From NCBI RefSeq assembly GCF_029227855.1, contig NZ_CP074356.1: 64,000 nucleotides of DNA; one strand, 5' to 3'. Under the pieces are notes generated by a model. It saw only the letters and a program-made list of their open reading frames with translations, did no database searches and was not told the DNA's origin. The stretch comes from Escherichia coli (GTDB taxonomy: Bacteria; Pseudomonadota; Gammaproteobacteria; Enterobacterales; Enterobacteriaceae). Each line of letters starts with the position of its first letter. Position 1 is the stretch's first letter. Positions 60,360 to 61,412 of the stretch are shown in pieces. The position numbers and the translations under genes are program-made.

Positions 60360-61412
60360 ATGTTTTTAGCATCATTGTTGAGACGTATTGCATTTAGTTA
60401 CTACGATTATAAAGCTAATAATTTCAATATTGGAAAAACAGACTTTGTTGTCATCCATATTCCCGATCAAATTGGCGATGCTATGGCCATCTTTCCAGTT
60501 ATTCGGGCGATTGAAATGCATAAAATAAAGCATCTTTTAATTGTTACTTCGACTATTAATTTAGAAGTCTTTAATGCGCTCAAACTTGAACAGACTAAAT
60601 TAACATTAGTTACAATGACTATGCAGGATCACGCAACATTAAAAGAAATAAAAAATTTAGCGAAGAACATAACACTGCAATACGGTACGCCGGATCTTTG
60701 TATAGAGGCGATGCGTAAAAAGAACCTGAAAACGATGATATTTATCAGTCAGTTGAAAGCAAAAACGAATTTTCAGGTTGTTGGTTTAACCATGAAGTGC
60801 TATTCCCCTTTGTGTAAGGACGCGTCCCGGATGGATCAGAGTCTCCGGGCTCCCGTACCCATGACATGGGCATTTATGATGCGTGAGGCGGGTTTTCCAG
60901 CAGTCAGGCCAATATATGAATTGCCACTAAGTGAGGATGTACTCGATGAGGTGCGCGAGGAAATGCGATCGTTAGGAGCTTACATTGCGCTCAATTTAGA
61001 AGGTAGTGCACAGGAACGTACATTTTCATTATCGATAGCAGAAAATCTAATAGCAAAAATTCAAAGTGAAACAGATATGCCAATAGTGATCGTTCATGGA
61101 CCAAAAGGGGAAGATAAAGCCAGGGTATTAGTGGATTGTTATAATAATGTCTTCCGTTTATCCTTATCACCCTCGATTAAACGTTCGGCAGCAATCATAA
61201 AAGATGCTTATATCGCAATAACTCCTGACACCTCAATATTACATATGGCAAGTGCCTATAATACCCCCGTTGTTGCAATTTATGCTGATTACAAAACGCG
61301 ATGGCCCGCAATGGCCGATGTTTCGGAGTCAGTCGTCGTTGGGCAAAAAATTGACAATATAAGTCTGGATGAATTCGCAAAGGCATTAAAAAGTGTTTTG
61401 GCGAGAATATGA
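60360..61412 (+). CDS. yeeL: Putative glycosyltransferase YeeL (heptosyltransferase-like), apparently intact
   Basis: 350-aa uninterrupted ORF between shiA and yeeJ, the position of yeeL in K-12. Confidence 0.7.
   Translation: MFLASLLRRIAFSYYDYKANNFNIGKTDFVVIHIPDQIGDAMAIFPVIRAIEMHKIKHLLIVTSTINLEVFNALKLEQTKLTLVTMTMQDHATLKEIKNLAKNITLQYGTPDLCIEAMRKKNLKTMIFISQLKAKTNFQVVGLTMKCYSPLCKDASRMDQSLRAPVPMTWAFMMREAGFPAVRPIYELPLSEDVLDEVREEMRSLGAYIALNLEGSAQERTFSLSIAENLIAKIQSETDMPIVIVHGPKGEDKARVLVDCYNNVFRLSLSPSIKRSAAIIKDAYIAITPDTSILHMASAYNTPVVAIYADYKTRWPAMADVSESVVVGQKIDNISLDEFAKALKSVLARI

What the first reader, a model, noticed from the sequence alone, without database searches (positions are those of the whole stretch)
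60360..61412. yeeL appears intact here
An uninterrupted 350-aa glycosyltransferase-like ORF occupies the position where, as I recall, K-12 has yeeL as a split pseudogene; this strain may retain the ancestral functional form.
Basis: partly seen in the sequence, partly recalled or inferred. Interest (0 to 1): 0.25.

Follow-up and report, generated by a model that had tools for sequence, protein, structure and literature searches.

The report
Intact yeeL glycosyltransferase gene, ordinary allele
This strain carries an unbroken copy of yeeL, a sugar-transferring enzyme gene that lab strain K-12 has lost to one stop codon, but the unbroken form is the normal state in most E. coli and is already annotated, so the finding is correct but ordinary.

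Summary
An uninterrupted 350-codon ORF lies at 60360-61412 (+), between shiA and yeeJ, exactly where K-12 has yeeL. K-12 yeeL (b4497) has the same 1053-bp length and differs functionally by one nonsense change, CAA(Gln235) to TAA, with no indels.

The intact form is not special. Of 5,426 complete E. coli genomes, about 5,030 carry this segment. About 85% of those have a sense codon at 235. 770 (15%) carry TAA, including K-12, BL21 derivatives and natural isolates. This window's exact protein is already public on at least 1000 contigs as "glycosyltransferase family 9 protein".

The protein is a true GT9 enzyme by fold (AF2 pLDDT 94.8; nearest structures 3TOV, WaaF, WaaC). It keeps the WaaC-equivalent catalytic residues D40, R220, D290, T291 and H295. 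Its closest K-12 relative by profile is WaaU (heptosyltransferase IV). Long-term dN/dS is about 0.1.

Linkage to the YeeJ adhesin is not conserved, and there is no resemblance to TibC-type adhesin heptosyltransferases. Distant relatives sit in LPS/polysaccharide clusters, and one Erwinia copy is a moron in a P2-like tail cluster.

The most likely function, inferred only, is an accessory LPS-core heptosyltransferase. Novelty: already known. Interest is low.

The parts
60360..61412 (+). yeeL, intact 350-aa GT9-family glycosyltransferase ORF (stop codon included)
   Evidence: ORF call. Identical in nucleotide sequence to the KE55 CDS WP_000477867.1. Pfam PF01075 hit. AF2 GT-B model, pLDDT 94.8.
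60343..60348 (+). Shine-Dalgarno-like GGGAGG, 11 nt upstream of the ATG
   Evidence: Read directly from the sequence. The start position is conserved in orthologs (alignment).
61062..61064 (+). Codon 235, CAA (Gln). This is TAA in K-12, BL21 and 770 complete genomes
60477..60479 (+). Codon for Asp40 in the invariant G39-D40 motif, equivalent to the WaaC catalytic base D13
   Evidence: Invariant in the 35-sequence family alignment. hhalign to WaaC pairs IGD with MGD.
61017..61019 (+). Codon for Arg220, equivalent to WaaC K192 (donor phosphate contact)
   Evidence: Nearly invariant. Aligned to K192.
61224..61244 (+). Codons 289-295, P-D-T-S-I-L-H, equivalent to the WaaC D261-T262...H266 donor-binding motif
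   Evidence: P289, D290, T291 and H295 are invariant. Aligned to the WaaC VDTGLSH motif.
60046..60359 (.). Divergent shiA-yeeL intergenic region (314 bp, AT-rich). Presumed yeeL promoter region. KE55 has an ISEc31 insertion here
   Evidence: Composition. No above-chance promoter match. KE55 annotation.
58729..60045 (-). shiA, shikimate transporter (flanking gene, synteny anchor)
61674..64000 (-). 3' part of yeeJ, the inverse-autotransporter adhesin (runs off the window). A neighbour, not a functional partner
   Evidence: Big_1/Invasin_D3 domains. Synteny.
61627..61654 (-). Terminator-like hairpin downstream of yeeJ, in the convergent yeeL-yeeJ spacer

Best explanation
The ORF is the intact, ancestral allele of E. 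coli yeeL. In K-12, B strains and about 15% of complete genomes that carry the segment, the gene is inactivated by one nonsense mutation (Gln235 to stop). The product is a soluble or peripheral GT-B enzyme of glycosyltransferase family 9. By inference, it binds an ADP-heptose-type donor in its acidic C-terminal domain through R220 and the D290-T291...H295 motif. Asp40 in its basic N-terminal domain would act as the catalytic base that activates an acceptor hydroxyl. The acceptor is most likely the LPS core or another anionic surface glycolipid, which would make YeeL an accessory, WaaU-like side-branch heptosyltransferase encoded outside the waa cluster. Shown here: ORF integrity, orthology, the K-12 lesion, allele frequencies, the GT9 fold, conserved catalytic residues and purifying selection. 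Inferred only: donor, acceptor and expression.
For: Orthology and lesion.

Allele census: the CAA 31-mer is exact in 3,591 of 5,030 genomes. TAA is exact in 770. The rest are CAA plus one nearby SNP. Six of six sampled non-TAA genomes are annotated intact, and four of four TAA genomes are flagged 'internal stop'. The exact protein is on at least 1000 contigs in a cluster of 10,923 members.

GT9 identity: Pfam 29.1 bits against a cutoff of 22. Profile against PDB gives 3TOV 2.8e-19, WaaC 2e-11 and WaaF 9e-10. The AF2 model has pLDDT 94.8 and pTM 0.92. Foldseek top hits are 3TOV, WaaF and WaaC at TM about 0.7.

Catalytic residues: G39-D40, N212, P289-D290-T291, H295 and A299 are invariant and map to WaaC D13, K192, D261, T262 and H266.

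Closest K-12 paralog by profile is WaaU: probability 99.1, E 1e-18, 322 columns including the N-terminal helix.

Selection: dN/dS is 0.07-0.10 against divergent Escherichia and Pseudocitrobacter, and 0.25 against K-12.

Context: distant family members lie in LPS/polysaccharide clusters with GT9, GT2, GT4, Wzy_C, WecG and Bac_transf genes. The N-domain pI is 9.5 and the C-domain pI is 5.1.
Against: No experiment or paper addresses YeeL function. The literature uses yeeL only as a map position or a neutral integration site. The protein fails every curated heptosyltransferase equivalog cutoff, for example TIGR02193 at 38 bits against 185. In E. coli the gene is an orphan, far from the waa and rfb clusters. 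It is AT-rich (GC 0.39) and no promoter was detected above chance, so it may be silent. It has been lost repeatedly: the TAA lineage, absence of the segment from about 7% of genomes, and many truncated Shigella sonnei fragments. GT9 also includes non-heptose transferases, so the donor is not settled.
Confidence: 0.6

Rival explanations
1. YeeL is a protein O-heptosyltransferase, like TibC or AAH of the BAHT family, that glycosylates the neighbouring YeeJ adhesin.
For: It is a GT9-type protein directly adjacent to, and convergent with, a giant adhesin gene in E. coli. BAHT enzymes are encoded next to their autotransporter substrates (established knowledge).
Against: Linkage is not conserved. 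Pseudocitrobacter and a divergent Escherichia have GT9 next to mtfA and shiA with no yeeJ. E. albertii, Erwinia and Rosenbergiella copies are at unrelated loci. Integrity of the two genes is uncoupled: yeeJ is intact and yeeL dead in K-12 and BL21, while yeeL is intact and yeeJ degraded in ATCC 11775, O26:H11 and O8:H8. YeeJ was shown to be functional in MG1655, which lacks YeeL, and that paper does not mention glycosylation (PMC5595812). No TibC hit appears in the profile-vs-PDB search at E up to 1 or in the top 50 Foldseek hits.
Confidence: 0.04
2. The ORF is intact but functionally irrelevant in E. coli. It would be a horizontally acquired, transcriptionally silent gene drifting toward loss, so its integrity here has no phenotypic meaning.
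For: Low GC (0.39; GC3 0.35) against about 0.50 in the flanks. No promoter above chance. Independent losses include the TAA allele in 770 genomes, absence of the segment from about 400 genomes, partial deletions, and many truncated fragments in Shigella sonnei. Within-species dN/dS of 0.25 is relaxed for a core gene. No phenotype is reported in the literature.
Against: Long-term dN/dS is about 0.07-0.10. All catalytic residues are invariant across 35 homologs down to about 20% identity and in every sampled E. coli allele whose ORF could be compared in register. The ORF is intact in roughly 80% of complete genomes.
Confidence: 0.2
3. YeeL is an active GT9 enzyme with a different chemistry: a non-heptose donor, or a non-LPS acceptor such as ECA, capsule, an O-unit on undecaprenyl phosphate or a small molecule.
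For: It scores far below all curated heptosyltransferase I, II and III cutoffs. Its best structural match, 3TOV, is itself uncharacterised. Distant relatives sit beside Bac_transf, WecG, Wzy_C and flippase genes, which build undecaprenyl-linked polymers. Two Erwiniaceae copies lie directly downstream of an MFS transporter.
Against: The donor-site motif DTxxxH and the K192-equivalent R220 are conserved as in ADP-heptose enzymes. The strongest characterised-paralog match is WaaU. L017 also holds a second GT9 and an ABC1/kinase-like gene, which is typical of core clusters.
Confidence: 0.16

Closest known systems
E. coli K-12 yeeL (b4497; formerly yeeL_1/yeeL_2, b1979/b1980) pseudogene
   Same: Same locus (yeeJ-yeeL-shiA-amn), same 1053-bp length, 46 nt differences (95.6% identity) and the same start and stop.
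   Different: K-12 has TAA at codon 235 and the window has CAA. There are 21 further amino-acid differences. The window allele is a rare haplotype: only 102 records are at least 99% identical over 1.6 kb.
RefSeq 'glycosyltransferase family 9 protein' of E. coli (e.g. WP_000477867.1, WP_000480488.1, WP_000480501.1)
   Same: Identical (WP_000477867.1 in KE55) or about 95% identical. Same locus, 350 aa, annotated intact.
   Different: Nothing material. This is the same gene.
WaaU (RfaK), putative ADP-heptose:LPS heptosyltransferase IV of the K-12 core
   Same: End-to-end profile alignment (probability 99.1, E 1e-18). It shares the N-terminal extension before the first Rossmann strand, the GD motif and the DT..H motif.
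   Different: Only about 15% identity. WaaU is encoded in the waa cluster, whereas yeeL is an orphan. Neither acceptor has been tested here.
WaaC / WaaF (heptosyltransferases I and II; PDB 2H1H, 6DFE, 1PSW) and the uncharacterised GT9 3TOV
   Same: GT-B fold at TM about 0.7. Catalytic and donor-binding residues are conserved.
   Different: 12-14% identity and below the equivalog cutoffs. YeeL has an extra N-terminal helix (residues 2-14) and a conserved D16-Y17 motif.
BAHT family (TibC, AAH) autotransporter heptosyltransferases
   Same: GT9-like chemistry. In E. coli the gene is adjacent to an adhesin gene.
   Different: No detectable sequence or top-ranked structural similarity. Adhesin linkage is not conserved.

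Membership tests
Ortholog of E. coli yeeL | Same chromosomal position between shiA and yeeJ, opposite in strand to both neighbours (divergent from shiA, convergent with yeeJ) | tested here: met
Ortholog of E. coli yeeL | High nucleotide identity over the full length, without indels | tested here: met
   46 of 1053 nt differ from MG1655, with colinear alignment.
Glycosyltransferase family 9 (Pfam PF01075) | Pfam model match above the gathering threshold | tested here: met
   29.1 bits against 22, but only aa 233-321. The family profile hits GT9 structures over the full length.
Glycosyltransferase family 9 (Pfam PF01075) | GT-B two-Rossmann fold with GT9 enzymes as nearest structural neighbours | tested here: met
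   AF2 pLDDT 94.8. Foldseek top 10 are all GT9 or the GT9-like PnsB1.
Glycosyltransferase family 9 (Pfam PF01075) | N-terminal catalytic Asp (WaaC D13) and C-terminal donor-site residues (WaaC K192, D261, T262, H266) | tested here: met
   D40, R220, D290, T291 and H295 are invariant or nearly so and aligned to WaaC. They are present in the window allele and in nine sampled E. coli alleles. The tenth, L6-21, is 9 nt shorter and was read out of register, so it was not assessed.
Glycosyltransferase family 9 (Pfam PF01075) | Glycosyl transfer from ADP-heptose (or another nucleotide sugar) demonstrated | not testable with these tools
   Needs an enzyme assay.
LPS heptosyltransferase I/II/III equivalogs (TIGR02193, TIGR02195, TIGR02201, RfaQ, RfaF) | Score at or above the curated NCBIfam cutoff | tested here: not met
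   38.1 against 185.3, 18.7 against 134.6, 16.9 against 170.2, 15.3 against 467 and 12.1 against 569 bits.
WaaU-like heptosyltransferase IV | Full-length homology to WaaU | tested here: met
   hhalign probability 99.1, E 1.1e-18, 322 columns. Identity is only about 15%.
WaaU-like heptosyltransferase IV | Encoded in the waa core cluster and adds HepIV to the outer core | tested here: not met
   yeeL is an orphan next to shiA. The chemistry is not testable here.
BAHT (TibC/AAH) adhesin heptosyltransferases | Sequence or structural similarity to TibC/AAH | tested here: not met
   No TibC hit at E up to 1 in the profile-vs-PDB search. None in the top 50 Foldseek hits.
BAHT (TibC/AAH) adhesin heptosyltransferases | Conserved genetic linkage with an autotransporter substrate | tested here: not met
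   Seven homolog contexts lack any adhesin neighbour. yeeJ and yeeL integrity are uncoupled.

The most novel reading that the evidence does not exclude
YeeL represents an uncharacterised, horizontally mobile clade of WaaU-like GT9 enzymes that add a non-stoichiometric sugar, probably heptose, to the LPS core. On this reading the modification has been missed by decades of E. coli LPS chemistry because both workhorse lineages, K-12 and B, carry the same Gln235-stop allele. The Erwinia aphidicola copy is inserted as a low-GC moron between the tail-fibre and sheath genes of a P2-like tail-only cluster. That position suggests the modification alters a phage or tailocin receptor, giving self-immunity or superinfection exclusion.
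Probability: 0.25. Interest if true: 0.45.

Novelty: already known. Interest (0 to 1): 0.15.

Why it matters
An intact yeeL is the norm in E. coli and PGAP already annotates it. K-12's pseudogene status is long established.

The modest residual value lies elsewhere. The enzyme's function is unknown. K-12 and BL21 are natural nulls sharing one ancient nonsense allele. Simple experiments (repairing codon 235 in K-12, or deleting the gene in a wild strain) could reveal an overlooked LPS modification with consequences for phage, tailocin or serum sensitivity.

The result is also a caution for metabolic engineers who use yeeL as a 'neutral pseudogene' integration site. In non-K-12 chassis the gene is intact.

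Tried and rejected
1. Adhesin-glycosylation (BAHT-like) idea prompted by adjacency to yeeJ. Rejected on non-conserved linkage, uncoupled gene integrity and lack of TibC similarity.

2. Phage origin suggested by an end-to-end PHROG hit (phrog_27389, 749 bits). tblastn against 50,697 deposited phage genomes found nothing. My inference is that the PHROG reflects predicted prophage regions that include host flanks near asnT.

3. 45-mer allele-specific searches were confounded by a linked SNP at nt 720. They were replaced by 31-mers.

4. Single-sequence PDB search was uninformative (WaaF, E = 1.5). The family profile was needed.

5. Literature searches on 'yeeL' mostly returned author initials. Genuine mentions only use it as a landmark, a phi80 secondary attachment site or an integration site. 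'heptosyltransferase' plus 'yeeJ' returned no papers.

7. The promoter scan found nothing above chance upstream of yeeL. The Rfam scan of 55-64 kb gave only a sub-threshold manA-II hit outside the locus.

8. My register-based comparison of the L6-21 allele is invalid. That allele is 9 nt shorter and is annotated as an intact 347-aa CDS.

Full report
OBSERVATION. The window contains an uninterrupted ORF at 60360-61412 on the + strand: 350 codons, ATG start. A GGGAGG Shine-Dalgarno-like motif lies 11 nt upstream. The flanking genes are amn and shiA on the - strand and the 3' part of the giant inverse-autotransporter adhesin gene yeeJ on the - strand (Big_1/Invasin_D3 repeats). This is the K-12 order yeeJ-yeeL-shiA-amn in reverse orientation.

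K-12 COMPARISON. MG1655 yeeL (b4497, 2052276-2053328) is annotated as a pseudogene. PGAP flags the same interval in C600 as 'glycosyltransferase family 9 protein, internal stop'. Older literature lists it as split, yeeL_1. Translating the K-12 interval gives one internal stop, at codon 235. The pairwise DNA alignment is colinear, 1053 against 1053 nt with no indels. The lesion is C to T at nt 703, turning CAA Gln into TAA. The two alleles differ at 46 nt and 22 codons.

HOW COMMON IS THE INTACT FORM?
- The 1.6-kb region is present in 5,284 of 5,426 complete E. coli genomes.
- A 31-mer centred on codon 235 carrying CAA matches exactly in 3,591 of 5,030 genomes that hold the segment.
- The same 31-mer with TAA matches exactly in 770 genomes. 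A further 667 are two mismatches from TAA and one from CAA, meaning CAA plus a nearby SNP, as in O157:H7.
- So about 85% of genomes carrying the segment have a sense codon, about 15% have the K-12 stop, and about 7% of all genomes lack the segment.
- The TAA allele is not a laboratory artefact. It occurs in BL21-derived Nico21(DE3), in human stool isolate 510016, and in chicken isolates, on the same haplotype with an identical ShiA protein accession. This indicates one old mutation inherited within a lineage.
- In ten sampled genomes, every TAA carrier is flagged 'internal stop' (MG1655, C600, 510016, Nico21). Every other one has an intact annotated CDS (KE55, ATCC 11775, O26:H11, O157:H7, O8:H8, L6-21).
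- The exact protein of this window is already in public databases on at least 1000 contigs, named 'glycosyltransferase family 9 protein / ADP-heptose:LPS heptosyltransferase'. Its 90% cluster has 10,923 members.

The intact gene is therefore ordinary and already annotated.

WHAT THE PROTEIN IS.
- Pfam Glyco_transf_9 passes its threshold (29.1 against 22 bits) but covers only residues 233-321. NCBIfam heptosyltransferase equivalogs are hit far below their cutoffs.
- I built a 35-sequence family alignment reaching down to about 20% identity. Invariant residues are G39, D40, N212, P289, D290, T291, H295 and A299. Near-invariant residues are D112, L132, R220, A277, S298, P303 and W315.
- The family profile hits solved GT9 structures: 3TOV at 2.8e-19 over the full length, WaaC at 2e-11, and WaaF at 9e-10.
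- An AlphaFold2 model is very confident (pLDDT 94.8, pTM 0.92) and shows two Rossmann-like domains. Foldseek against the PDB ranks 3TOV, WaaF and WaaC first (TM about 0.7, probability 1.0). TibC-type adhesin heptosyltransferases are not in the top 50.
- Profile alignment to K-12 WaaC pairs D40 with the catalytic base D13, R220 with K192, D290-T291 with D261-T262, and H295 with H266. The residue roles in WaaC come from my knowledge of the published WaaC structures.
- The family aligns much better, and end to end, with K-12 WaaU, the putative heptosyltransferase IV (probability 99.1, E 1.1e-18, 322 columns). That alignment includes the N-terminal helix that WaaC lacks.
- The N-domain is basic (pI 9.5) and the C-domain acidic (pI 5.1). 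This fits an anionic acceptor or membrane surface, though only weakly.

EVOLUTION AND CONTEXT.
- Selection: dN/dS is 0.07-0.10 against a divergent Escherichia copy and the syntenic Pseudocitrobacter ortholog, and 0.25 against K-12. That means long-term purifying selection, somewhat relaxed within the species.
- Composition: the gene is AT-rich (GC 0.39, GC3 0.35) compared with about 0.50 in its neighbours.
- Family size: exhaustive search shows a small family. Only 28 representatives reach E of 1e-30 or better, many of them fragments, before it fades into generic GT9 C-domain matches.
- Pseudocitrobacter has amn-shiA-GT9-mtfA with no yeeJ.
- A 73%-identical Escherichia version has hchA-GT9-mtfA-shiA-amn, a local inversion, again with no yeeJ.
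- The E. albertii copy is between tonB and yciA.
- The Erwinia persicina and Rosenbergiella copies follow an MFS transporter gene.
- The Erwinia aphidicola copy is a low-GC insert (0.40-0.45 against 0.60-0.69). It lies between the tail-fibre and sheath genes of a P2-like tail cluster in which no capsid genes were seen, convergent with the fibre gene.
- More distant members (33-34% identity) are embedded in LPS/polysaccharide clusters. These hold a second GT9, GT2, GT4, Wzy_C (ligase/polymerase-like), WecG, Bac_transf and a flippase.

Together these point to a surface-glycolipid acceptor, most likely LPS core. They argue against a dedicated partnership with YeeJ.

THE ADHESIN IDEA. Adjacency to yeeJ invites a TibC/AAH-like reading. 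The evidence goes against it.
- yeeJ sits in an asnT-associated acquired segment (PMC5595812), and yeeL exists at the same locus without it in relatives.
- yeeJ is intact where yeeL is dead (K-12, BL21), and degraded where yeeL is intact (ATCC 11775, O26:H11, O8:H8).
- YeeJ was shown to be functional in MG1655.
- No TibC similarity was found.

MECHANISM (best estimate). YeeL is an inverting GT-B enzyme of family 9. It binds an ADP-heptose-type donor in the C-terminal domain and uses Asp40 as the base to glycosylate an LPS-core (or related glycolipid) hydroxyl. This would be a non-essential, accessory, WaaU-like decoration. Donor, acceptor and expression are inferred, not shown. Rivals are a silent gene drifting to loss (about 0.2), a different donor or acceptor (about 0.16), and adhesin glycosylation (about 0.04).

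NOVELTY AND VERDICT. The finding as written is correct but already known. K-12's yeeL pseudogene and the intact GT9 gene of other E. coli are both in standard annotation, and the intact form is the majority state. Interest is low (0.15).

The most novel reading still open has a probability of about 0.25. It is that this small mobile GT9 clade makes an LPS modification overlooked because K-12 and B are natural nulls, possibly relevant to phage or tailocin receptors, as hinted by the Erwinia tail-cluster moron. It can be tested directly by repairing codon 235 in K-12 and examining the LPS.

Noticed in passing
window 45034-56000: A tRNA-Asn-associated island lies between yeeO and yeeN. tRNA-Asn is at 45034-45109. 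It is followed by a P4-type integrase split into two ORFs (45169-45861 and 45711-46532), a second integrase-like ORF (47870-48487, -) and a 1200-aa Rhs-repeat protein (50572-54174). K-12 has nothing comparable between yeeO and yeeN.
   Followed up: partly
L012 (E. coli KE55) 1650-2863: The closest relative of this window is KE55, a urine isolate with 0 nt differences in yeeL. It carries an ISEc31 insertion in the shiA-yeeL intergenic region, about 160 bp upstream of yeeL, that the window lacks. The insertion could alter yeeL expression.
   Followed up: partly
window 60100-61700: The window's yeeL haplotype is rare and divergent. Only 102 of 5,285 records are at least 99% identical over 1.6 kb. 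It differs by 31-46 nt (3-4.4%) from the sampled alleles that were compared in register (the ATCC 11775 type strain, O157, O26, O8 and K-12), which is high for an E. coli chromosomal gene.
   Followed up: partly
L003 (Erwinia aphidicola CP188307.1) 7800-12400: A 61%-identical YeeL homolog is a low-GC insert between the tail-fibre gene (His-rich HxH repeats at its C-terminus) and the sheath gene of a P2-like tail/lysis cluster. No capsid genes are present in the 21 kb seen, so the cluster looks tailocin-like. No fibre-chaperone gene is evident where the GT9 sits.
   Followed up: partly
window 61674-64000 and L013, L015, L020: yeeJ is frequently degraded (frameshifted or partial in ATCC 11775, O26:H11 and O8:H8), independently of yeeL status. 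The window's own yeeJ runs off the end, so its integrity is unknown. In KE55 it is a 2660-aa intact CDS.
   Followed up: partly
window 60360-61412: PHROG family phrog_27389 (unknown function) matches YeeL end to end at 749 bits, yet no deposited phage genome encodes a homolog (tblastn). My inference is that the PHROG stems from predicted prophage regions that swallowed host flanks.
   Followed up: yes
protein P0078: An nr entry 73% identical to YeeL (353 aa) is labelled 'glutathione transporter [Rattus norvegicus]'. This is almost certainly bacterial contamination or misannotation in a eukaryotic record.
   Followed up: no
window 61413-61673: A paper reports the convergent yeeL-yeeJ spacer as a secondary phi80 lysogenisation site in K-12 (PMC6016239). 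It contains one strong hairpin (61627-61654) that reads as the yeeJ terminator. yeeL has no obvious terminator of its own.
   Followed up: no
L004 (E. albertii CP117647.1) 10001-11059: The E. albertii homolog (67% identity) lies between tonB and yciA, not at the shiA locus. It is therefore a separately inserted copy rather than a positional ortholog.
   Followed up: no
window 55603-55759: A weak, sub-threshold Rfam match to the manA-II motif (30 bits against a gathering score of 100, E 0.05). Probably chance.
   Followed up: no
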